Of a stretch of DNA of 64,000 nucleotides, positions 24,333-32,300 are shown one piece after another. Made by a program: the position numbers and the translations under genes. Every line of letters starts with the position of its first letter. The stretch's first letter is position 1. Under the pieces are notes generated by a model. The model was not told where the DNA came from. It worked only from the letters and a program-made list of their open reading frames with translations, and searched no databases. The stretch is from Ostreococcus lucimarinus (Eukaryota), in the NCBI GenBank assembly GCA_000092065.1, contig CP000584.1. The stretch is one strand, 5' to 3'.

Positions 24333-24494
24333 CCCGTCCTAGCTCATCATTGTTTCCCCGCGCGTCGTGTGTTGTGCAATAGAGATAGAAAAAAGCGAAA
24401 AAAACCCGACGGCTCGACGTCACCACCATAGCTCGTGCGCCTCGCGACGCCACACCGCGCTCGTCGACGATCGACGTCGCGCCGGACGCGCGCG

Positions 24495-26030
24495 ATGCAC
24501 AGAACATTCGTCAGGTCGGCCATGCACCGCCGCGTCGTCGCCGCCGCCGCCGCGCGCACGCGCACGACGTCATCCTCGTCCTCGTCCTCGCCGCTCGCCG
24601 CGAGCGTCGTCGCGCGACGTTGGACGCCCGGACGTCCCGCGCAGCGCGCGACGCTCGCCACGCGAGCGAGCGCAACGAGCGAAGCGCCCGCGTTGAATGC
24701 GTCGGGGGAGACGAACAAGGCGCTGGCGTGGAAGGCGGCGATCGATTTCAAGTTTGTGCGGGACAACGCCGAGTTGGTGCAAAAGAACGCGACGACGAGA
24801 AAGGTGGACGTGGATGTGCAGGAAATCATCGCGAAATACGAGGCGTTGAACGCGTTGAACTTTAAGTGCGATGAACTTCGCGAGCGTCGAAACGCGAACG
24901 CGAAGAGCATGAAGGGGAAGATGGATAAAGAGGTTCGGGACGGGTTGATTGCCGAGGGCAAGGCGATTAAGGACGAGCTCGCGGCGCTCGAAGGCGATCT
25001 CGCCGGACTCGAGAGCGAGTTACAAACCATGGCGCAGAGGTTGCCAAACTTGACACACCCGGATGTGCCGATCGGCAGCGAAGAAAATACGGTGACTCGG
25101 GCGACGGTGGGTGAGCAGCGCGCGTTTACGTTTCCAGTGCAAAATCACGTCGACGTCGGCGAAAAGCTTGGGATGTTCGACTTCGAGACTGGAAGCAAGG
25201 TGAGTGGTAGTCGTTTCGTCTACCTCACCGGTGTTGGAGCTATGCTTGAGTTAGCTCTGATCAACTGGGCGTTCGCCAAGGTTTTGAGCAAAGGTTTCAA
25301 GCCCATGATGGTGCCAGACATGGTGCGTAGCAGCGTGGTGGAGAAGTGCGGATTCCAGCCGCGGGCAGAGAACACGCAAGTGTATAGCATTGAAAACTCC
25401 GATCTCTGTATGGCGGGTACGGCTGAACTATTATTGGGTGGAGTATACATGGATGAAGTTGTGGAAGAATCGCAACTCCCTATCAAAATGGCGGCCTTCA
25501 GTCATTGTTTCCGCACTGAAGCCGGCGCCGCCGGCGCGCAGACTCGGGGCATGTATCGTTTGCATCAGTTTAGCAAGGTGGAGATGTTCGTCGTGGCCAC
25601 GCCTGAGCAATCTGACGCACTTCACGAGGAGCTCATCGGCATCGAGACTGAAATGTTTGCAGAGCTCGGCTTCCACTTCAAAGTTTTGGACATGCCCACG
25701 GAGGACTTAGGCGCACCGGCATATCGCAAATTCGACGTCGAAGCGTGGATGCCCGCGCTCGAACGGTACGGCGAAATTTCGAGTGCCTCGAACTGCACGG
25801 ATTATCAAGCGAGGCGGCTGAATATAAAGTACAGACCGAATGCCGTCGATGGCAAGAAGCAGCCGCTTATGCACTGCCACACTCTCAACGCGACGGCGTG
25901 CGCGATTCCTCGTATGATCGTCACCATCCTCGAAAATTTCCAGCAAGAAGATGGAAGCGTCGTCGTACCCGAGCCGTTGCGACCGTACCTCGGTGGCATG
26001 GATGTTTTGCGTCCGGAAGAGGGGAAATAG
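24495..26030 (+). CDS. Seryl-tRNA synthetase, organellar
   Basis: Class II aaRS motifs (GSRFVYLTGVGAMLELALINWA, FSHCFRTEAGAAGAQTRGMYRLHQFSKVEMF, GEISSASNCTDYQARRLNIKY) and an N-terminal Ser/Arg/Ala-rich transit peptide. The track start is GTG at 24435; first ATG at 24495. Confidence 0.85.
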   Translation: MHRTFVRSAMHRRVVAAAAARTRTTSSSSSSSPLAASVVARRWTPGRPAQRATLATRASATSEAPALNASGETNKALAWKAAIDFKFVRDNAELVQKNATTRKVDVDVQEIIAKYEALNALNFKCDELRERRNANAKSMKGKMDKEVRDGLIAEGKAIKDELAALEGDLAGLESELQTMAQRLPNLTHPDVPIGSEENTVTRATVGEQRAFTFPVQNHVDVGEKLGMFDFETGSKVSGSRFVYLTGVGAMLELALINWAFAKVLSKGFKPMMVPDMVRSSVVEKCGFQPRAENTQVYSIENSDLCMAGTAELLLGGVYMDEVVEESQLPIKMAAFSHCFRTEAGAAGAQTRGMYRLHQFSKVEMFVVATPEQSDALHEELIGIETEMFAELGFHFKVLDMPTEDLGAPAYRKFDVEAWMPALERYGEISSASNCTDYQARRLNIKYRPNAVDGKKQPLMHCHTLNATACAIPRMIVTILENFQQEDGSVVVPEPLRPYLGGMDVLRPEEGK

Positions 26031-26107: not shown

Positions 26108-27160
26108 TTAATTGTTCTTCCAGTTCTCGATCCACGCTTGTGCCTCATCAGCCTTAGTGGCAGACTTGGTCGGCTTGGCTGGAGCGCTGGCCACGGTTTT
26201 CGCCGGGGTGCTAGACACTGTGGTAGTCTTCGTCGCCGCCGTCGATACGGACGGTTGACCCTCTCTGCGGTTTGAGTATGCGAACAGACCGAGACCGAGA
26301 CCGGTGGCAATGATGGAGAGCGGGTTCACGCGGCTCACCTTCTTCGGGCGCGGAGCCGGCTTGGCCGCCTTCTTCACCGCCGGCTTGGCAACCTTCTTCG
26401 TGACGGACTTGACCGGTCGGGTAACCTTCTTGGTAGATTTGGTCTTCGCCTTCGCCGCCGCCGGCTTGGTGGTCGTCGCCGTTGCCGCCGCCGGCGTCGT
26501 GGTCTTGATCGGCGTCGTCACCGGCTTTGCCGCCGCCGGCGTGGTGGTCGCCGCCTTGGCCGGCTTGGCGGTCGCCGCCGCCTTGGTCGCCGCCGGCGTC
26601 TTTGTCGCCGCCGCCTTGGTCGCCGCCGGCGTCTTTGTCGCCGGGGCAGCCTTCGGCGCCGGGGCCGTCACAGTCGGGGCCGACTTCTTGGCCGCCGCCG
26701 GCTTTTTCGTCGTCGGCTTCTTGGTCGCAGCGCCCGCCGCTGCCGCCGCCTTCGTTTGGGCCGGAGTCTTCGTCTTCTTCACTTCTGCGGCAGACTTAAG
26801 TGCAGTTCCCTTCAATCGGTTCGGTTCCGCGCGCTTCGGCGCAACCTTTTGGTATCGCGCCGCAGCCGCTTGCTCCAACTCCTTGCGTTGCTTCGGAGTG
26901 AGCGTCGCCTTGGCCGACGTGCGCTTCACCTTGATTTGCACATCCGGCGCAACCTTAGCTTTCGTGGACTTCACCTTTGCCGCAGACTGAACGCCCTCTC
27001 TTCGCGCCGCCGGCGACGTCGCCGTCGTGGCCAACGCCGGCTCCACGGACGTCGTCGCGAGCGTCAGCGCGAGCGCCGCCGCGAACGCCTTCCCCGCTGC
27101 GCCTTCTTCGCTCGCACTCGCGCGCACGACCACCGCGCTTCGCGCGTTGGAACGTCGAAC
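26108..27160 (-). CDS. Lys/Ala/Pro/Thr-rich low-complexity protein, paralog 1, exon 2
   Basis: ORF 26108..27133 extended 9 codons upstream to a TAG| acceptor. The exon opens with a transit-peptide-like stretch, then a hydrophobic segment AAALALTLATTSVEPALA, then about 250 aa of AKP/TKP-type basic repeats (histone-H1-tail-like or mucin-like), then a predicted TM helix (VNPLSIIATGLGLGLFAYS) and a 50 aa tail. Confidence 0.55.
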   Translation of the reverse strand, partial: VRRSNARSAVVVRASASEEGAAGKAFAAALALTLATTSVEPALATTATSPAARREGVQSAAKVKSTKAKVAPDVQIKVKRTSAKATLTPKQRKELEQAAAARYQKVAPKRAEPNRLKGTALKSAAEVKKTKTPAQTKAAAAAGAATKKPTTKKPAAAKKSAPTVTAPAPKAAPATKTPAATKAAATKTPAATKAAATAKPAKAATTTPAAAKPVTTPIKTTTPAAATATTTKPAAAKAKTKSTKKVTRPVKSVTKKVAKPAVKKAAKPAPRPKKVSRVNPLSIIATGLGLGLFAYSNRREGQPSVSTAATKTTTVSSTPAKTVASAPAKPTKSATKADEAQAWIENWKNN

Positions 27161-27343
27161 CTACGCGTGTAATAGTTATCTTCGCCGTCAGTCGTCCGTC
27201 TCGCGCGTCTTCGCTCGCGACGCGTCGCAAATCGCCGATAAAGTCGCGACGCGTCCCGATAGATCGTCTTCGCCTCGAAACAACCATCGGCAACGCTCGC
27301 GCGCGTTCTCGAGCGCGATGCGGGCGCGCGCGCGCGCGCGTAC

Positions 27344-27400
27344 CTTGACAACCTTCGTGGGCGTCACTCGCGCGGTGAGCGCGTTCATCGAGGCCAACAT
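27344..27400 (-). CDS. Lys/Ala/Pro/Thr-rich protein, paralog 1, exon 1 (mini-exon)
   Basis: ATG at 27400 within track ORF 27188..27532 (-). It encodes MLASMNALTARVTPTKVVK followed by a GTACGC donor. The peptide is conserved with paralog 2 exon 1 (M.xSMxALxARVxxK). The intron is about 183 bp and begins with a (GC)n run. Confidence 0.5.
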
Positions 27401-27759
27401 GATCGTCTGAGCGTCGAGAAATAGCGAAAGCCATGACGTCATGCCGACGTCGATCCCCAGCCTCGCCGGCACGCGGGCGCTTTTTGGTCTTTGCGGGACG
27501 CTCGCGGGAAGACGGAGCGAGCGATGGAGCATCGGGACGCTCGAATCGAGAAAAGCGAGCGAACGGCGCGCGCGGTGATCGTAGATAGAGGATATGGACA
27601 GAATGCGTATTGAGAAAGTACTCTCGAGTTCGCCAGTCGACGAGGCGCCGCGGGCGCTAGCGCCCCGGCGAGTCGAGAGAATTCAGAGCCACATTTGCCA
27701 TTTATGCACGCGCGATCAAATATCGACAGCGCGCAATTGAGAGATCACACGCGTATAGC

Positions 27760-28251
27760 TTACTTTCTGCGTTGCGCCGGGGAAGTCGTCTTGGACTTCT
27801 TCGCCGCGACGGGGGCAGTCTTGGAGGACTTGCGAACGGTCTTGACCGGCTTGCGCGCGGACTTGACGGTGCGCTTGACGGTCTTGCGCGCGGCCGGGGC
27901 GGCGGCGGTGCTCGTCTTGGAGCGAACGCGCTTCGTCGTGCGCTTCTTGGTCGTCGCAACCGGGGTGGTCTTCTTCGCCTTGTACGCGGTGGCCTTCTTA
28001 GCCTTCACCCCCGGGGCCGCCGCCGGAGCCGGCTTCGCCGTCTTCGGGGACACCGCCGCGGCCGAGCGCTTGCCCGATCGTCGCGCCGCCGGGGACGTCG
28101 TGGACGTCGCGAACGACGGTTCGACCGACGTCGCGGAGAGCGTCAACGCGAGCGCCGCCGAGAACGCGGCCCGCGCGAAGGACGCGCCTTGAGTTTCGCC
28201 CTCCTCCTTCGCGGCGCGCACCGCGAAGCTCTTCGCCTGCGTCTTGCGTCC
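27760..28251 (-). CDS. Lys/Ala/Pro/Thr-rich low-complexity protein, paralog 2, exon 2
   Basis: ORF 27760..28281 (-). The N-terminal region AAFSAALALTLSATSVEPSFATSTTSPAARR is paralogous to paralog 1 and is followed by K/A/T/P/R-rich basic low complexity. The exon start (acceptor after CAG at about 28252 or 28237) is approximate. Confidence 0.5.
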   Translation of the reverse strand, partial: GRKTQAKSFAVRAAKEEGETQGASFARAAFSAALALTLSATSVEPSFATSTTSPAARRSGKRSAAAVSPKTAKPAPAAAPGVKAKKATAYKAKKTTPVATTKKRTTKRVRSKTSTAAAPAARKTVKRTVKSARKPVKTVRKSSKTAPVAAKKSKTTSPAQRRK

Positions 28252-28483
28252 CTGTTCGCGTCGCGTTCGCGTTTCGCCCATCGTCAGTCCTCTCGCGGGT
28301 GTTTCTCTCGCGTCTCGCGGGTGTTTCTCTCGCCCGTCCCGTCTCGCTCGCGGTCCCGTCTCGCTCGCGCCTCGTGGATAGGGTCCGCGACGATCGCGCG
28401 CTCGCGCGTCGTCCCTCGCCGCGTCTCGGGTCCGCGCGTCCCCCCTGCGCGACGCGGTCTCCGGTTCGCGTTCGGGCGCGCAC

Positions 28484-28537
28484 CTGCGCGGACTTGGTCG
28501 CGACGCGCGCCCTGAGCGCCGTCATCGAGGTGGACAT
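28484..28537 (-). CDS. Lys/Ala/Pro/Thr-rich protein, paralog 2, exon 1 (mini-exon)
   Basis: Within track ORF 27998..28546 (-). ATG at 28537 gives MSTSMTALRARVATKSAQ followed by a GTGCGC donor. It aligns with paralog 1 exon 1. Confidence 0.45.
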
Positions 28538-28895
28538 GGTGAACATCGTGCGAGCGTGCTTGCGTGCGGGAAGTGCGGATTCGGATTATTCGGCGGCGGG
28601 ATTCGATGCGCGGCGGGCGATCGCGGGGGGGTCACGACGAGTCACGAACGGTCGATGACGATTTTCGTTCGTTTTCGACCTCGAAAAAGCGCGCCGCGCG
28701 AAAAGACGCGCGGGTCCGGCGATCGATCGGATCGATCGCGCGCGCGATCGACGCCCGCGCGCGGTCGAACTTCGAACGGCGCGCGGCGATGGATGCGGCG
28801 ATGGATGCGCGCGTGGAACGATGCGGATGCGCGCGCGGATGACGGCGTGACGACGGGAGACGACGACGGCGCGACCGGGCGTCGCGTCGGTCGAC

Positions 28896-31800
28896 ATGGC
28901 GCCCGAGCGCGGCGCGCGCGGTGGACGCGGACGCGGGACGACGACGACGACGGGGGCGCGATGCGACGGCGAGGGACGACGCGCGACGACGCGCGGACGG
29001 GGACGGGGACGGGGACGCGGGCGAGGCGGGGGCGCGAGCGCGAGCGCGAGCGCGGAGGCGCTGACGGAGGGTGAGAAAGAGGCGGCGCTGGCGCGGTCGA
29101 GGGCGCGCGAGGAAGCGCAAGCGGCGAAGAGGGCGGCGGAGGAGGCGACGAGGACGGAGGCGGCGGCGGCGAAGGCGCGCGCGGAGCTCGAGGCGAAGCG
29201 ACGGGAGATCGAGCGGGCGCGAGAGACGCGAGCGAAGGCGCGCGAGGGGAACGCGTCGCCGTCGAGGCCGGACGAACAAGCGCTCAAGGGGAGAGATTCG
29301 AGCATTAAGAAGAACACGACGCTGATTAAAAAGTTGAGGACGATTACGGAGGAGAACGGGGCGGCGCTCGCGCAAGAGTTGAGCAGGGTGAACGTGAGTA
29401 AGTACGTCACCGAGGCCGCGACGGCGTGCGTGGAGGGTAAGATGAAGAGCTCGGACGTCAACGCGGCGGTGGAGATCATTTCTTGCATGCACCAGACGTA
29501 CGCGGATTTCGCGGCGCCGCTCATCGCGGCGTTGAGCGCGTACGTATTGCCGCCCAAGCCCGAGACGTTGTTGAAGATGGCAGAGGGCGAGGTAGAGGCG
29601 TTGCCGTCGCCGTTGCAGCGTCGAACCAAATTACGATTGTTCATGGAGCTTCATCTCGTCGGTGTGTGCCCCGAAGTAAAGCCCGTGCTCGACGCCGTGA
29701 AGGAGCTGGCGCGCTTGGAGTACAAGACGGCGCCGGATTTATACCAACACTCGCTCAGCACGCTGGCAAGTTTCGCCAAGACATTTGCCGTGGAGATGCT
29801 CGGTGCCGAACCCGAGGTCGAGATGGCGTCCAACGATTTTATCCTGGCGCCAGATGTGCAAAAGGCGTTTCGGACGACGCTGAATGAGTATTGCGACAGA
29901 CTCTTCTTCGTGCTCATGGAGGCGTTTTCAGCCGTCACAGCGCAAGAACGCGAGATGTCGCGGTTATTAGAACGCACGGGTGCTATTAGTGAGGCAGCAT
30001 CGGTGGAGTTTGCGGCTCTCACAAAGGTGTTTGATGGGTTGTTGAAGGGGGCAACGACGCTCGCAGAAGCGCTCAGTCGCGAGCTTCCAGAGATGAAGAA
30101 GCAAGTGGAAGAGAAGGTCGCACGAGGAGGCACGATGGAGCTGCATCGTGGAGGTGTGAAATCGTCGGGCGAGCGCAGCGATATGTGGGAAGACGAGGAA
30201 CAGCAGCACTTTTACGAGACACTTCCAGATTTGCGAGCCTCGATTCCCGCGGTGCTCCTGGTGAACGCGACGAACGAAAACGAAACGGAAGCCGAGCGTC
30301 TGAAACGCGAGAGGGAAGAAAACGCAGAAGGGCGAAGCGCAAAAGTCGAAGGTTTAATCATGCGTTTGTCCGATTCGCTGTCGAAAGACAAGGCTGATAC
30401 GATTTGTACCGACTTCTGTTACATCGCCGCTCGAGGAGGACGAAGACGGTTGATTCAAGAATTTTTGAGCGTACACCGCTCGGAGGTAGATCGCATTCCA
30501 TTCTATGGTAGAATAATAGCCACACTCGCGAATGTGTTCGATGACATCGCGCCCGCCGTTTCCGAACCGCTGAAGAATGAGTTCTATAATTTGGTCAAGA
30601 AGGGCAAACGAGCAAATCTAAGCGAGCGCTTGAAGAATATCAAATTCATCGGCGAGCTCATCAAGTTCAAAGTTTTCGACGATTTGGCGGTGTTTGAGAT
30701 CGTGAAAAGTCTTTTAGATGATTTTCATGGTGACAATGTCGACGTTCTTTGCTGTTTATTTGACGTAGCGGGCTATTACTTGACTCGAACGCCGTCGACG
30801 TCGAAACGTATGGGAAGCATTTTGGACATCTTCCTGCGCCTAAAAGCTGTGAGCAAGTTGGACTCTCGGCAGTGTGCTTTGGTGGATAGCGCTTATTATA
30901 AATGTAGGCCAGTGCAGAGGGTCGTAGTGGAAAAGATACGACCACCATTGCACGAATATATTCGAGAGCTCATCTATTTACAGTTGTCAAAGCACACGCT
31001 CGACAAAGTGGCGACGCAACTTCGTAAACTTCCTTGGGATGAAACTGAACCTTACTTGTTGAAAAGACTCCTCAAAGTGAGTAAAGGGAGATACGCATCC
31101 GTACCACTCGTCGCAGCGTTGATTGCGAGATTGTCACAATACTACCCGACTCTCGCAGTGCGAGCGCTTGATACATTGCTAGAGGATATTCGATTTGGTT
31201 TAGAGACAAACGAAACGTGGATGCATCAGCGCCGTGTTGCGAACATGAGACTCCTCGCACTTCTGTACAAAGAGCGCGTCGCGCTCTTCCGTGAGCTTAT
31301 GGATACGCTCTACTTGATAATTTCTATCGGCTACGACGGACGCGAAGCGCCTGACTATCTGACGGATACGATTCGTTTGCGCATGGTTTGTACGCTTTTG
31401 GAAACCGCGTTCAAGGGAAGAGGAGCCATTAGTTACGCGCAGAAGAAAGAAATCGACAGGTTCTTGATCTTTTTTCAGCGATACGCGTTGACAAAAGATG
31501 TGGCGTTAGATATATCTAACGACGTCATGGAGTTGTTGTCCTCGATGAATCCGCGAATGAAAATTTGCGAGACGTACGAAGAGGCGAACGGTGAGTGCCA
31601 AAAGCTTCTTGAAAAGCCGAGCATTACCCCTGGTGGCATGGAACCAGTGATGGAGGAGGAGGAAGAAGAAGAAGAAGAAGAAGAAGAAATGGACGTCTGC
31701 GAAGAGAGCGAAGAGAGCGAAGAGAGCGAAGAGAGCGAAGAAGAACACGAAGATGAAGATATGGACGATGTGTCGTCGGATGAATCAGAAGACGAATCTA

Positions 31801-32300
31801 CGGATGGCGAATCCTCGACCGAAGTGGACGTCGACGATGATGACTCCACTGACTCCGGATCCGAGACTTCCGAGCAAGACGAAGAAGTCAAAGTTCGTGC
31901 GAAGCTTTCTCGAGCATCTTTGCAAGAACAGCGAGAGTTTGATCGCGAGATGAACAAGTTCCTCGGTGCCTCTGCGACGTCGATGCTGGGAAGTCGCGGC
32001 ATACGAAATCACTCAAGCGCAAATCCTTCAAGGAACAACACTGGGGGGACGATAGCGTTTAAGATGCTGGTAAAGAACCAAGGTAAACAAACGATAAAAG
32101 AACTCAATGTCCCGGAACGCGCAGAGTTCGTCGCCAACGTCAAAGAGGCTTTGAAGGCTGAAGAAGCCGAGCTCGCCGAAGTCAAGCGAAAAATTCTTAC
32201 GTCTACGTATCACGACGATGACGCGCCGGCGATCCCGGGGCCCAGAGGATGGAGACCGAACAATCGCCGCTCAGAACATAACATATCGAGACGGCTGTAG
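28896..32300 (+). CDS. UPF2: Nonsense-mediated mRNA decay factor UPF2-like (three MIF4G domains, acidic region)
   Basis: 1134 aa. N-terminal RG-rich and coiled-coil region, then MIF4G-like helical repeats (NTTLIKKLRTITEENGAALAQELSRVNVSKYVTEAATACVEGKMKSSDVNAAVEIISCMHQTY resembles UPF2 MIF4G-1). An acidic Glu/Ser block (E12, EES x4) precedes a C-terminal UPF1-binding-like tail. The architecture and size fit UPF2. ATG at 28896. Confidence 0.6.
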   Translation: MAPERGARGGRGRGTTTTTGARCDGEGRRATTRGRGRGRGRGRGGGASASASAEALTEGEKEAALARSRAREEAQAAKRAAEEATRTEAAAAKARAELEAKRREIERARETRAKAREGNASPSRPDEQALKGRDSSIKKNTTLIKKLRTITEENGAALAQELSRVNVSKYVTEAATACVEGKMKSSDVNAAVEIISCMHQTYADFAAPLIAALSAYVLPPKPETLLKMAEGEVEALPSPLQRRTKLRLFMELHLVGVCPEVKPVLDAVKELARLEYKTAPDLYQHSLSTLASFAKTFAVEMLGAEPEVEMASNDFILAPDVQKAFRTTLNEYCDRLFFVLMEAFSAVTAQEREMSRLLERTGAISEAASVEFAALTKVFDGLLKGATTLAEALSRELPEMKKQVEEKVARGGTMELHRGGVKSSGERSDMWEDEEQQHFYETLPDLRASIPAVLLVNATNENETEAERLKREREENAEGRSAKVEGLIMRLSDSLSKDKADTICTDFCYIAARGGRRRLIQEFLSVHRSEVDRIPFYGRIIATLANVFDDIAPAVSEPLKNEFYNLVKKGKRANLSERLKNIKFIGELIKFKVFDDLAVFEIVKSLLDDFHGDNVDVLCCLFDVAGYYLTRTPSTSKRMGSILDIFLRLKAVSKLDSRQCALVDSAYYKCRPVQRVVVEKIRPPLHEYIRELIYLQLSKHTLDKVATQLRKLPWDETEPYLLKRLLKVSKGRYASVPLVAALIARLSQYYPTLAVRALDTLLEDIRFGLETNETWMHQRRVANMRLLALLYKERVALFRELMDTLYLIISIGYDGREAPDYLTDTIRLRMVCTLLETAFKGRGAISYAQKKEIDRFLIFFQRYALTKDVALDISNDVMELLSSMNPRMKICETYEEANGECQKLLEKPSITPGGMEPVMEEEEEEEEEEEEMDVCEESEESEESEESEEEHEDEDMDDVSSDESEDESTDGESSTEVDVDDDDSTDSGSETSEQDEEVKVRAKLSRASLQEQREFDREMNKFLGASATSMLGSRGIRNHSSANPSRNNTGGTIAFKMLVKNQGKQTIKELNVPERAEFVANVKEALKAEEAELAEVKRKILTSTYHDDDAPAIPGPRGWRPNNRRSEHNISRRL

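What the first reader, a model, noticed from the sequence alone, without database searches (positions are those of the whole stretch)
26108..28537. Tandem paralogous Lys/Ala/Pro/Thr-rich genes sharing a conserved 18-19-codon first exon and bipartite N-terminus
Two adjacent minus-strand genes are extremely basic and low in complexity (AKP/TKP/KKP repeats like a histone H1 tail or mucin/AGP-like). Each is preceded about 180-250 bp upstream by a mini-exon with the same peptide (MLASMNALTARVTPTKVVK versus MSTSMTALRARVATKSAQ). One ends on a GTACGC donor, the other on GTGCGC. Exon 2 of both starts with a Ser/Arg/Ala stretch and a conserved hydrophobic segment (AAALALTLATTSVEPALA versus AAFSAALALTLSATSVEPSFA), which resembles a transit peptide plus lumen or signal-anchor domain. 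Paralog 1 also has a predicted TM helix near its C-terminus. The function is unknown; possibilities are a membrane-tethered nucleoid or DNA-binding protein or a glycosylated surface protein. Conservation of the mini-exon across paralogs argues that it is real and functional, as a targeting signal or regulatory uORF-like start.
Basis: seen in the sequence. Interest (0 to 1): 0.6.

Follow-up and report, generated by a model that had tools for sequence, protein, structure and literature searches.

The report
Thylakoid proteins carrying a portable docking helix
Two adjacent, apparently unannotated genes of the tiny marine alga Ostreococcus lucimarinus encode very basic, disordered chloroplast proteins, and the longer one ends in a short tryptophan helix almost identical to the one that, in another green alga, holds the photosynthetic enzyme FNR on the thylakoid membrane.

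Summary
Two minus-strand genes lie between SerRS and Upf2 in Ostreococcus lucimarinus. P1 is 369 aa (27400..26108) and P2 is 184 aa (28546..27760). Each has a 19-21-codon first exon, a phase-0 intron (GTRCGC...ACTGAC...YAG) and a basic, disordered body.

The mini-exon and intron recur at the same position in five further genes from three other Ostreococcus lineages. In the closest lineage pair, exon 1 is better conserved than the intron. All P1 methionines lie in exon 1.

The N-terminus is a chloroplast transit peptide plus a thylakoid-transfer signal. Its best solved-structure matches are PsaF, PsbQ and PsbW precursors, and a distant relative has a twin-arginine signal.

P1 belongs to an unnamed green-algal family with this layout: signal, basic spacer, one TM helix, then a tail with 1-3 copies of A-x-A-Q-x-W-I-D-x-W-K. 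The only significant solved-structure match of that motif is the Chlamydomonas Lhca4 N-terminal helix. A 2026 preprint reports that this helix binds ferredoxin-NADP+ reductase with Kd about 126 nM.

The same helix sits on at least six unrelated chloroplast scaffolds in aquatic metagenomes. My best reading, inferred only, is that P1 is a thylakoid tether for FNR. P2 is a truncated Ostreococcus-specific duplicate. The histone, nucleoid and glycoprotein ideas are not supported.

The parts
28484..28546 (-).
   Evidence: The orthologue in L003 has MFTMSTSLTTLKAQVAAKAVA followed by GTACGT.
28252..28483 (-). P2 intron, 232 nt, phase 0, GTGCGC...CAG; ACTGAC branch-like motif at 28288..28283
   Evidence: The length is not a multiple of 3, so read-through changes frame. 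It varies from 232 to 238 nt in natural populations while the exons keep frame.
27760..28251 (-). P2 exon 2 (includes the stop codon)
   Evidence: The C-terminal KSKTTSPA... is conserved in L003 and L016. dN/dS is 0.48 against L003.
28108..28170 (-). P2 thylakoid-transfer-type hydrophobic domain ending in S-F-A (AAFSAALALTLSATSVEPSFA)
27763..28050 (-). P2 K/T/A/S/R-rich disordered tail. The region after the A-x-A site is 115 aa with net charge +36. It has no TM helix and no Trp.
27344..27400 (-). P1 exon 1 (MLASMNALTARVTPTKVVK). It holds the only two Met codons of the whole protein.
   Evidence: Orthologous exon 1 sequences are in L003, L016 and L017.
27161..27343 (-). P1 intron, 183 nt, phase 0, GTACGC(GC)n...TAG; ACTGAC at 27192..27187, whose TGA stops read-through
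26108..27160 (-). P1 exon 2 (includes the stop codon)
   Evidence: Homologues were found.
27029..27088 (-). P1 thylakoid-transfer-type hydrophobic domain ending in A-L-A (AFAAALALTLATTSVEPALA)
26798..26902 (-). Conserved segment LTPKQRKELEQAAAARYQKVAPKRAEPNRLKGTAL: a predicted helix plus the family motif Y-x-K-V-x-P-x-R-x4-5-[RL][FL]-x-G-T. It is lumenal in the favoured topology.
   Evidence: helix at exon-2 residues 89-104, pLDDT up to 83
26324..26773 (-). K/A/P/T-rich basic spacer. The whole segment between the A-x-A site and the TM helix is 236 aa with net charge +51. It is length-polymorphic in the wild.
26273..26323 (-). P1 transmembrane helix (PLSIIATGLGLGLFAYS)
   Evidence: (helix at exon-2 residues 280-296)
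26111..26152 (-). C-terminal Trp helix ADEAQAWIENWKNN, the family motif A-x-A-Q-x-W-I-[DE]-x-W-K. It is the putative stromal FNR-docking helix.
   Evidence: Searches show the invariant A, W, I, W. One search shows the only significant PDB hits are CrLhca4 (E 0.004). In one search this is the best-predicted helix (pLDDT up to 88). One search shows it is the only such motif in all six frames of the window.

Best explanation
P1 and P2 are real, spliced nuclear genes for chloroplast proteins. Exon 1 plus the start of exon 2 encode a stromal transit peptide. The following short hydrophobic stretch, ending in a small-x-small site, is a thylakoid-transfer signal.

P1 is a single-pass thylakoid membrane protein. 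Its basic disordered N-terminal part probably faces the lumen, and its 55-residue C-tail faces the stroma. The tail ends in an amphipathic Trp helix (EAQAWIENWK) of the same type as the N-terminal helix of Chlamydomonas Lhca4, which binds ferredoxin-NADP+ reductase. P1 would therefore hold FNR on a flexible leash at the thylakoid surface. That would be a prasinophyte counterpart of TROL/Tic62, using the Lhca4-type helix on a dedicated scaffold.

P2 is an Ostreococcus-specific tandem duplicate. It kept the targeting sequence and a basic tail but lost the anchor and the helix. Its role is unknown (a soluble polycation in the favoured topology).

Shown here: gene structure, paralogy, the family and its architecture, the motif identity and its portability.

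Inferred: thylakoid location, topology, and FNR as the partner.
For: Gene model:
- Six genes in four Ostreococcus lineages share a 19-22-codon exon 1, a phase-0 intron, a GTRNGN donor, and ACTGAC 26-37 nt before YAG.
- Between L003 and L016, exon 1 is 98.5 % identical against 82.5 % for the intron.
- P1 has Met only at residues 1 and 5. Unspliced P1 hits a stop and unspliced P2 shifts frame.
- Synteny Upf2 - gene - SerRS holds in all of them, and gene - SerRS holds in the Micromonas-like L019.

Targeting:
- An N-terminal profile against the PDB gave 8 hits. Six are precursors with bipartite thylakoid presequences: PsaF three times (E 0.005, 0.68, 3.6), PsbQ 0.03, PsbW 0.03 and PRF2 2.2. The three alignments printed (PsaF, PsbQ, PsbW) run up to the end of the hydrophobic domain.
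- The P0045/P0057 clade has a canonical LGRRDVFG...A-x-A twin-arginine signal.

Family:
- An exhaustive HMMER search found relatives with the same order of elements and 2-3 copies of the helix.

Motif:
- A 21-copy motif profile hits only CrLhca4 significantly in the PDB (E 0.004; the next hit is at E 0.5).
- The L003 copy NAAEAQEWIDNWK matches the Lhca4 peptide NVKEAREWIDAWK at 9 of 13 positions, read directly from the sequences.
- The Lhca4 peptide SAVPENVKEAREWIDAWKSKSGG binds FNR 1:1 with Kd ~126 nM, and a charge-swap mutant binds weakly (bioRxiv 10.64898/2026.04.07.716946).
- AF2 predicts the P1 motif as its most confident helix.

Stromal side:
- The motif directly follows a plain transit peptide in Lhca4, P0049, DUF2854, Mpv17 and fibrillin proteins.

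Need for another carrier:
- O. tauri PSI lacks the outer LHCI belt in which CrLhca4 sits (PMC10097422).
- No Tic62/TROL/LIR1 orthologues had been identified in the unicellular alga Chlamydomonas (PMC5683061).
- Tic62 also carries tandem C-terminal FNR-binding repeats (established knowledge).
Against: - No binding, localisation or expression data exist for P1.
- The FNR link rests on one non-peer-reviewed preprint and an 11-residue motif. The window copy itself matches the Lhca4 core at only 6 of 13 identical positions.
- The TM helix is preceded by a dense positive cluster (KKAAKPAPRPKKVSR). By the positive-inside rule that cluster should stay in the stroma, which would put the helix in the lumen.
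- Moving a +51 segment into the lumen is energetically awkward.
- The motif also sits on a soluble sugar kinase and a fibrillin. That looks more like a general localisation tag than an FNR tether.
- Multi-copy scaffolds with 5 helices would also suit a multivalent hub such as Rubisco.
- Within-species differences are almost all non-synonymous, so constraint on most of the protein is weak.
Confidence: 0.45

Rival explanations
1. The Trp helix is a portable localisation tag for a different stromal hub. Candidates are Rubisco in a pyrenoid-like body, PSI, or a membrane domain. It would work like the Chlamydomonas Rubisco-binding motif system, and P1 would be one of many tagged membrane tethers.
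For: - The motif occurs on at least six unrelated scaffolds, including a soluble pfkB-like kinase and a fibrillin.
- It occurs in 2-5 tandem copies on giant disordered proteins. That matches the EPYC1 / RBMP / SAGA pattern described in PMC7673724.
- The core [DN]-W-K resembles the core of that motif.
Against: - The scoring rules of the Chlamydomonas motif are not met. There is no aliphatic residue at +4, no Pro at -3/-2, and no R/K at -8..-6 (compared with the sequences).
- The Micromonas pyrenoid has no traversing membranes (PMC10473226).
- Ostreococcus is, to my knowledge, pyrenoid-less, yet it keeps the system.
- The only experimentally tested copy of this exact helix binds FNR.
Confidence: 0.25
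2. P1 is the prasinophyte orthologue of PETO (cytochrome b6f subunit V), the algal-specific single-pass thylakoid phosphoprotein needed for cyclic electron flow. This does not exclude the best explanation. It would place the FNR-docking helices on b6f.
For: From the literature:
- PETO is green-algal-specific and loosely bound to b6f, and it crosslinks to the stromal N-terminus of PetD.
- FNR co-distributes with PetO on gradients, and the authors proposed that FNR binds a membrane complex containing PetO (PMC3709502; PMC5683061).

From the sequences:
- The Micromonas-like family member P0043 would give a mature protein of about 155 aa. That is close to the 15.2 kDa I recall for PETO (own memory).
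Against: - The PETO sequence could not be obtained with these tools.
- The AlphaFold-database library was not available.
- No named protein appeared in any search.
- The resemblance is therefore in architecture only.
Confidence: 0.3
3. The topology is the opposite one. The basic K/A/P/T domain stays in the stroma and binds nucleoid DNA, RNA or acidic membrane surfaces. The hydrophobic N-terminal stretch would be an anchor rather than a cleaved signal.
For: - The positive-inside rule favours it. The N-flank of the TM helix carries about +7 and the C-flank about +1 (sequence).
- SPKK-like S/T-P-x-K motifs and an H1-like composition are present.
- An automatic annotation called a homologue 'histone H1/5'.
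- Known plant analogues exist (PEND, MFP1; own knowledge).
Against: - The hydrophobic stretch has only ~14 residues and ends in P-x-small-x-small, like cleaved lumen signals. It matches PsaF, PsbQ and PsbW presequences.
- Relatives have a twin-arginine export signal.
- This topology would put the Trp helix in the lumen, whereas the same helix is stromal in every other context.
- There is no linker-histone domain.
- The spacer shrinks to about 25 residues in P0057, so its bulk is not essential to the family.
Confidence: 0.12
4. These are not genes. They are chance low-complexity ORFs in GC-rich DNA, or secreted AGP/mucin-like glycoproteins.
For: - Mirror ORFs exist on the opposite strand, and gene callers pick the antisense ORF for P2.
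- No annotated protein matches.
Against: - Frame-specific conservation holds across four lineages, with dN/dS about 0.45.
- Splice signals and synteny are conserved.
- Distant relatives were found by profile search.
- About 40 residues rich in S, T, R and A precede the hydrophobic domain, which is not the form of an ER signal peptide.
Confidence: 0.03

Closest known systems
N-terminal FNR-binding helix of Chlamydomonas reinhardtii Lhca4 (bioRxiv 10.64898/2026.04.07.716946)
   Same: - Nearly the same helix: Lhca4 KEAREWIDAWK, the family consensus AEAQeWIDaWK, and window P1 DEAQAWIENWK.
- Green-algal thylakoid protein.
- The helix sits at a free, flexible end of the protein.
- Predicted alpha-helix.
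   Different: - P1 is not an LHC protein (no chlorophyll-binding fold).
- The helix is at the C-terminus after a TM helix, not at the N-terminus.
- Relatives carry 1-5 copies.
- Binding to FNR has not been tested for P1.
Tic62 and TROL (land-plant thylakoid FNR tethers)
   Same: - Membrane-associated scaffolds that present short FNR-binding peptides on flexible stromal tails rich in Pro, Ser and Ala.
- Tic62 has tandem C-terminal repeats, as P1 relatives do.
   Different: - Their motif is a Ser/Pro-rich polyproline-II peptide, unrelated in sequence.
- No rhodanese or dehydrogenase domain is present here.
- No homology.
PETO, cytochrome b6f subunit V of Chlamydomonas
   Same: - Green-algal-specific.
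- Single TM helix.
- Stromal tail.
- Small size in the short family members.
- Co-fractionates with FNR.
   Different: Sequence relationship untested. The association of P1 with b6f is unknown.
PsaF (photosystem I subunit III)
   Same: - Bipartite presequence of the same style (E 0.005).
- A Lys-rich lumenal N-terminal part, one TM helix and a stromal C-terminus.
   Different: - No similarity in the mature protein.
- PsaF is folded and conserved, whereas P1 is disordered and fast-evolving.
Rubisco-binding motif system of the Chlamydomonas pyrenoid (EPYC1, RBMP1/2, SAGA1/2)
   Same: The logic is the same: one short Trp-Lys/Arg motif, often C-terminal and in several copies, is placed on many unrelated scaffolds, including TM proteins.
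   Different: - The motif definition is not met.
- The partner is probably different.
- The host genera mostly lack traversed pyrenoids.
Histone H1 C-terminal tails / bacterial AlgP-type KPAA repeats
   Same: K/A/P-rich composition and S/T-P-x-K motifs.
   Different: - No globular H1 domain.
- Organelle export signal at the N-terminus.
- The resemblance is in composition only.

Membership tests
Lhca4-type FNR-binding helix | Sequence core E-A-[RQ]-E-W-I-D-A-W-K | tested here: met
   A motif profile from 21 family copies hits only CrLhca4 significantly in the PDB (E 0.004). The window copy is EAQAWIENWK.
Lhca4-type FNR-binding helix | Alpha-helical conformation | tested here: met
   The AF2 helix at exon-2 residues 334-349 has the highest pLDDT block of the model (88). 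The three copies in P0057 are each helical but at low confidence.
Lhca4-type FNR-binding helix | Located on the stromal side | tested here: inconclusive
   Signal-type N-terminus, a twin-arginine signal in relatives and other contexts of the motif all say stroma. The positive-inside rule says lumen.
Lhca4-type FNR-binding helix | Carried by an LHCI antenna protein | tested here: not met
   No Pfam domain was found. None of the 121 motif-bearing metagenome ORFs had LHC signatures. P1 is therefore a different carrier of the same helix, not an Lhca.
Lhca4-type FNR-binding helix | Binds FNR at nanomolar affinity | not testable with these tools
   This needs ITC, pull-down or a multimer prediction. 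Only single-chain prediction of window sequences was available.
Bipartite chloroplast/thylakoid presequence | A hydroxylated, basic, acid-poor transit peptide, then a short hydrophobic domain ending in small-x-small | tested here: met
   Sequence. Six of eight PDB hits of the N-terminal profile are PsaF, PsbQ, PsbW and PRF2 precursors.
PETO (b6f subunit V) | Sequence homology to Cre12.g558900 | not testable with these tools
   The sequence is not retrievable and afdb50 is unavailable.
PETO (b6f subunit V) | Green-algal single-pass thylakoid protein with a stromal tail | tested here: inconclusive
   The architecture is compatible. Location and topology are only inferred.
Tic62 / TROL | Ser/Pro-rich FNR-binding repeat, with a dehydrogenase or rhodanese domain | tested here: not met
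   No Pfam domains were found. The preprint itself finds the two motif types distinct.
Linker histone H1 | Globular winged-helix domain (Pfam Linker_histone) | tested here: not met
   hmmscan at E<=1 returned nothing.
Chlamydomonas Rubisco-binding motif | [D/N]-W-[R/K]-x-x-[L/I/V/A] followed by D/E or the C-terminus, with Pro at -3/-2 and R/K at -8..-6 | tested here: not met
   The rules are from PMC7673724. In NWKNN*, NWKPSG and NWKKSQK only the D/N at -1 and the W-K core fit.

The most novel reading that the evidence does not exclude
The P1 family is the PETO family, and PETO-type proteins carry 1-3 FNR-docking helices on their stromal tail. The helix would then be a general, portable FNR tag that green algae have placed on Lhca4, on b6f-associated PETO, and on DUF2854, Mpv17, fibrillin and giant scaffold proteins. 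This would give a physical explanation for how FNR is brought to cytochrome b6f and to the cyclic-electron-flow supercomplex.
Probability: 0.2. Interest if true: 0.85.

Novelty: new variant of a known kind. Interest (0 to 1): 0.65.

Why it matters
How FNR is held on thylakoids decides how electrons are split between NADPH production and cyclic flow. Plants use Tic62/TROL, and cyanobacteria use a domain of FNR itself. For green algae the only proposal is the Lhca4 helix of Chlamydomonas, published in 2026 and sought only in Lhca proteins.

This work finds the same helix on a dedicated, unannotated membrane-protein family in Ostreococcus, Micromonas-like and other green algae, and on at least five further scaffolds. 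That turns a single-protein observation into a testable general mechanism in the ocean's most abundant picoeukaryotes.

It also shows that reference annotations and metagenome gene callers miss this gene class. The causes are the mini-exon, the low complexity, and calls made on the wrong strand.

Tried and rejected
- Pyrenoid / Rubisco-binding motif. This was my first idea from the C-terminal NWK. I rejected it as a membership claim after reading the scoring rules and the note that the Micromonas pyrenoid has no traversing membranes. It is kept only as a weak rival.
- Histone H1, TonB or AGP readings. The resemblance is compositional only, and there are no domains.
- Apparent 220-aa deletion alleles of P1 in L008 and L013. 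These are runs of N from scaffolding, not biology.
- Full-length P1 as a search query. It was swamped by low-complexity candidates and missed even near-identical fragments. Trimming the spacer fixed this.
- In-frame ATG inside the P2 intron (28281) as an alternative start. It is not in frame in the L003 orthologue, so I did not favour it.
- PETO sequence. Seven literature routes, including one supplement, and two direct look-ups all failed.
- AlphaFold-database fold search. The library was unavailable, and the models were too disordered anyway (mean pLDDT 52 and 39).
- Naming relatives through cluster look-ups. All relatives are unnamed metagenome proteins.
- L017. I first took it for Bathycoccus, but its SerRS clusters with O. 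tauri.
Full report
**What is there**

The minus strand of 26108..28546 holds two genes in tandem. They lie between a convergent seryl-tRNA synthetase gene (24435..26030, +) and a divergent Upf2 gene (28896..32300, +).

The gene structures are as follows:

| Gene | Exon 1 | Intron | Exon 2 | Product |
|---|---|---|---|---|
| P1 | 27400..27344 | 27343..27161 (183 nt) | 27160..26108 | 369 aa, pI 11.4; A 25.5, K 15.2, T 14.9, P 8.7 % |
| P2 | 28546..28484 | 28483..28252 (232 nt) | 28251..27760 | 184 aa, pI 12.0 |

BLASTP aligns only the first ~88 residues of the two proteins (56 % identity, E 1e-11). The SerRS ORF is 100 % identical to XP_001417206.1 of Ostreococcus lucimarinus CCE9901. Window GC is 57.6 %. 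The window is therefore O. lucimarinus.

**Are the mini-exons real?**

P1 relatives recovered from metagenomes sit in the same Upf2 - gene - SerRS context. I read the DNA upstream of each one.

- In a second Ostreococcus lineage (L003), both paralogues are present in the same order.
- A third lineage (L016) and an O. tauri-like lineage (L017, whose SerRS clusters with XP_003078690.1) supply further P1 orthologues.
- All six genes have a 19-22-codon first exon and a phase-0 intron of 126-261 nt. The donor is GT[AG]NGN, and ACTGAC lies 26-37 nt before the 3' YAG.
- Between the two closest lineages, exon 1 is 98.5 % identical. The intron is 82.5 % identical and the start of exon 2 is 92.3 %.
- Within O. 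lucimarinus populations the P2 intron varies from 232 to 238 nt, while the exons keep their length and frame.
- P1 contains methionine only at residues 1 and 5, both in exon 1.
- Unspliced P1 meets the TGA of ACTGAC. Unspliced P2 changes frame.
- Between lineages dN/dS is about 0.45 in the proposed frames.

I regard the gene models as established short of RNA evidence. P2 more likely starts at 28546 (MFTMSTS...), which is conserved in L003, than at 28537.

**What the N-terminus is**

About 40 residues rich in Ser, Thr, Ala and Arg, ending in V-R-A, are followed by a ~14-residue Ala/Leu/Thr stretch. That stretch ends in E-P-x-[LF]-A.

I built a profile of nine such N-termini and searched it against all PDB chain sequences. 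It returned eight hits. Six are precursors of proteins whose N-terminus is exported into the thylakoid lumen: PsaF three times (E 0.005, 0.68, 3.6), PsbQ (0.03), PsbW (0.03) and PRF2 (2.2). The three printed alignments (PsaF, PsbQ, PsbW) run to the end of the hydrophobic domain.

A distant clade of the family (P0045, P0057) has a textbook twin-arginine signal at this place, LGRRDVFGAVAAG...PASA. The mini-exon encodes the first half of the transit peptide.

**The family**

Pfam finds nothing in any member.

An exhaustive HMMER search of 1.84 billion representatives, using a profile that excludes the low-complexity insert, found 12 proteins. Those that are not fragments share one architecture:

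- a signal-type N-terminus;
- a short motif, Y-x-K-V-x-P-x-R-x4-5-R-F-x-G-T-E;
- a basic Ala/Pro/Lys/Ser spacer of very variable length (about 25 to about 190 aa);
- one TM helix;
- a tail with one to three copies of A-x-A-Q-x-W-I-[DE]-x-W-K.

In the nine-sequence alignment the invariant columns are almost all in that last motif.

The copy number of the helix differs between lineages:

- O. lucimarinus P1 has one copy at its very end (its only two Trp residues) and has lost the first copy.
- L003 has two copies.
- In L016 the first copy has decayed.
- The O. tauri-like (L017) and Micromonas-like (L019, GC 68 %, gene - SerRS neighbourhood kept) orthologues have two copies and are single-copy genes.

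P2 is therefore an Ostreococcus-clade-specific partial duplicate.

AF2 predicts P1 as disordered (mean pLDDT 52) except for three helices: the segment before the Y-K-V motif, the TM helix, and the Trp motif. The Trp motif has the highest confidence, with a block mean of 88.

**What the Trp helix is**

A profile of 21 copies of the motif, searched against the PDB, gives three significant hits. All three are Chlamydomonas Lhca4 (E 0.004). The next hit has E 0.5.

The matched stretch, KEAREWIDAWKSKSG, lies in the N-terminal extension of mature Lhca4. A preprint of April 2026 (10.64898/2026.04.07.716946) reports three things:

- cryo-EM density for FNR above Lhca4;
- an AlphaFold interface centred on this helix;
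- ITC in which the peptide SAVPENVKEAREWIDAWKSKSGG binds FNR 1:1 with Kd about 126 nM, while a charge-swapped peptide binds weakly.

The authors searched only Lhca proteins. They do not mention PETO or prasinophytes.

Two further points from the literature bear on this. O. tauri PSI has no outer LHCI belt, which is where CrLhca4 sits. No Tic62/TROL/LIR1 orthologues had been identified in the unicellular alga studied.

**The helix is portable**

I ran an exact DNA-pattern scan of the metagenome collection for A-Q-x-W-I-D-x-W-K. It stopped at its 120-locus limit. About 100 of the 121 ORFs carry the extended algal consensus (NA-x-[ED]-A-Q-x-W-I-D-x-W-K). About 15-20 look like chance or bacterial matches.

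The motif occurs in these contexts:

| Position | Scaffold | Loci / evidence |
|---|---|---|
| C-terminal tail | P1-like proteins with a TM helix just upstream | 30 loci |
| C-terminal, 2-5 copies | giant Lys/Ala/Glu/Pro-rich proteins | L021, L026, L042, L049, L052, L102 |
| Directly after a plain transit peptide | DUF2854 proteins | 11 loci, PF11016 E 1e-47 |
| Directly after a plain transit peptide | Mpv17/PMP22 proteins | 10 loci, PF04117 E 2e-20 |
| Directly after a plain transit peptide | fibrillins | PF04755 E 2e-28 |
| Directly after a plain transit peptide | a pfkB-like kinase (identified by eye) | L063, L101, L120, L131 |
| N-terminal part | coiled-coil protein with a C-terminal TM helix | L076, L095, L134 |

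P0049 is a further case, with a transit peptide, two helices and a C-terminal TM helix. None of the ORFs had LHC signatures.

Two conclusions follow. The helix is exposed in the stroma wherever its side can be read from the architecture. It also behaves as a transferable docking tag.

**Topology**

If the tail is stromal, the part of P1 between the signal and the TM helix (236 aa, net charge +51) must be lumenal. This agrees with the export-type signal and the twin-arginine relatives.

Against this, the TM helix is preceded by a dense positive cluster (KKAAKPAPRPKKVSR) and followed only by NRRE. By the positive-inside rule that arrangement favours the opposite orientation. Exporting so much positive charge is also unusual.

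I favour N-terminus in the lumen and C-terminus in the stroma at roughly 70 %.

**Mechanism proposed**

P1 is anchored in the thylakoid by one helix. It presents, on a ~40-residue flexible stromal leash, one Lhca4-type helix that captures FNR. Relatives with two to five helices would cluster several FNR molecules, as the tandem repeats of plant Tic62 do (established knowledge).

The function of the lumenal basic spacer and of the Y-K-V motif is unknown. So is the function of P2, which would be a soluble +36 polycation after cleavage.

Every step from 'the helix matches Lhca4' to 'P1 binds FNR in Ostreococcus' is inference.

**Rivals**

(a) The tag recruits to another hub. Its spread over enzymes, fibrillin and multi-copy scaffolds recalls the Chlamydomonas Rubisco-binding motif system. 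However, that motif's rules are not met, and the system is present in genera that, to my knowledge, lack pyrenoids.

(b) P1 is the PETO orthologue. PETO is an algal-specific, single-pass thylakoid phosphoprotein that co-fractionates with FNR. I could not obtain its sequence, so this remains an untested lead. It is compatible with the main explanation.

(c) The topology is the opposite one, with a stromal nucleic-acid-binding domain. It is contradicted by the signal-type N-terminus and by the stromal position of the helix elsewhere.

(d) The region is an artefact or encodes a secreted glycoprotein. This is excluded by conservation and by the form of the presequence.

**Annotation status**

Neither the spliced proteins nor the exon-2 ORFs are in the 15-billion-protein collection. 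No relative from NCBI, UniRef or EukProt appeared in any search, although the neighbouring SerRS is there from all these sources.

Metagenome gene callers start P1 at an internal GTG. For P2 they call the antisense ORF. The genes therefore appear to be missing from the reference proteomes held in this collection.

**Verdict**

The functional guesses are replaced by a specific, testable one. Novelty is a new variant of a known kind: an FNR-type docking helix on a new, dedicated scaffold, and evidently a portable motif.

Confidence in the separate claims:

| Claim | Confidence |
|---|---|
| Gene models | about 0.9 |
| Chloroplast/thylakoid targeting | about 0.8 |
| The Trp helix is a stromal docking motif | about 0.75 |
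| FNR is its partner, with the topology given | about 0.45 |

Noticed in passing
Metagenome loci L021-L140, e.g. L043 10384-11421 (+), L032 3110-4324 (-), L029 4819-6471 (+), L063 2-1348 (-), L052 5443-8625 (+): The helix A-Q-x-W-I-D-x-W-K sits directly after transit peptides of DUF2854, Mpv17/PMP22, PAP_fibrillin and pfkB-like kinase proteins. It also occurs in 2-5 C-terminal copies on giant Lys/Ala/Glu/Pro-rich proteins with FSFGAKK-type repeats. It is a portable motif on at least six scaffolds in aquatic green algae.
   Followed up: partly
window 26324-26773 (-); loci L009-L015: The P1 basic spacer is length-polymorphic in natural O. lucimarinus populations (369, 380 and 384 aa). The changes are gains of an 11-aa unit (ATKTPAATKAA) or a 15-aa unit. 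Within-species differences are almost all non-synonymous: 11 of 12 in P1 and 6 of 6-7 in P2.
   Followed up: partly
window 27695-28192 (+) and 26304-26990 (+): Long mirror ORFs lie antisense to P2 and P1. Metagenome gene callers consistently call the antisense 162-165-aa ORF instead of P2. P1, P2 and all relatives lack any NCBI, UniRef or EukProt entry in the collection.
   Followed up: partly
L017 5001-5693 (P0042), P0048, L100: The O. tauri-like and some other orthologues end in an extra aromatic tail after the last helix (KKGFFSW, KKSAWFSW, KKKDAWWSW). O. lucimarinus lacks it. Its meaning is unknown.
   Followed up: no
window 27323-27343 (-): A (GC)n microsatellite lies directly after the P1 splice donor (GTACGCGCGCGCGCGCGCGCC). 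The P1 intron is 214 nt instead of 183 nt in one population variant, L011.
   Followed up: no
window 28051-28107 and 26972-27028 (-): The segment T-S-P-A-A-[RQK]-R-x-G-x-x-S-A-A-x-V, just after the predicted signal cleavage site, is shared by P1 and P2 and by the L003 and L016 lineages. It is absent from the O. tauri-like and Micromonas-like orthologues. P2 also keeps a conserved C-terminal KSKTTSPA. These are possible Ser/Thr-Pro phosphorylation or binding sites.
   Followed up: no
L008 and L013 (P1 region), L010: P1 looks about 660 bp shorter in two metagenome scaffolds. This is caused by runs of N across the repetitive spacer, so the locus breaks short-read assemblies.
   Followed up: yes
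L019 100-180 (+): The Micromonas-like orthologue also has ACTGAC...CCAG just upstream of its exon that encodes the hydrophobic domain. An intron is therefore probably present there too. Exon 1 is cut off by the contig end.
   Followed up: no
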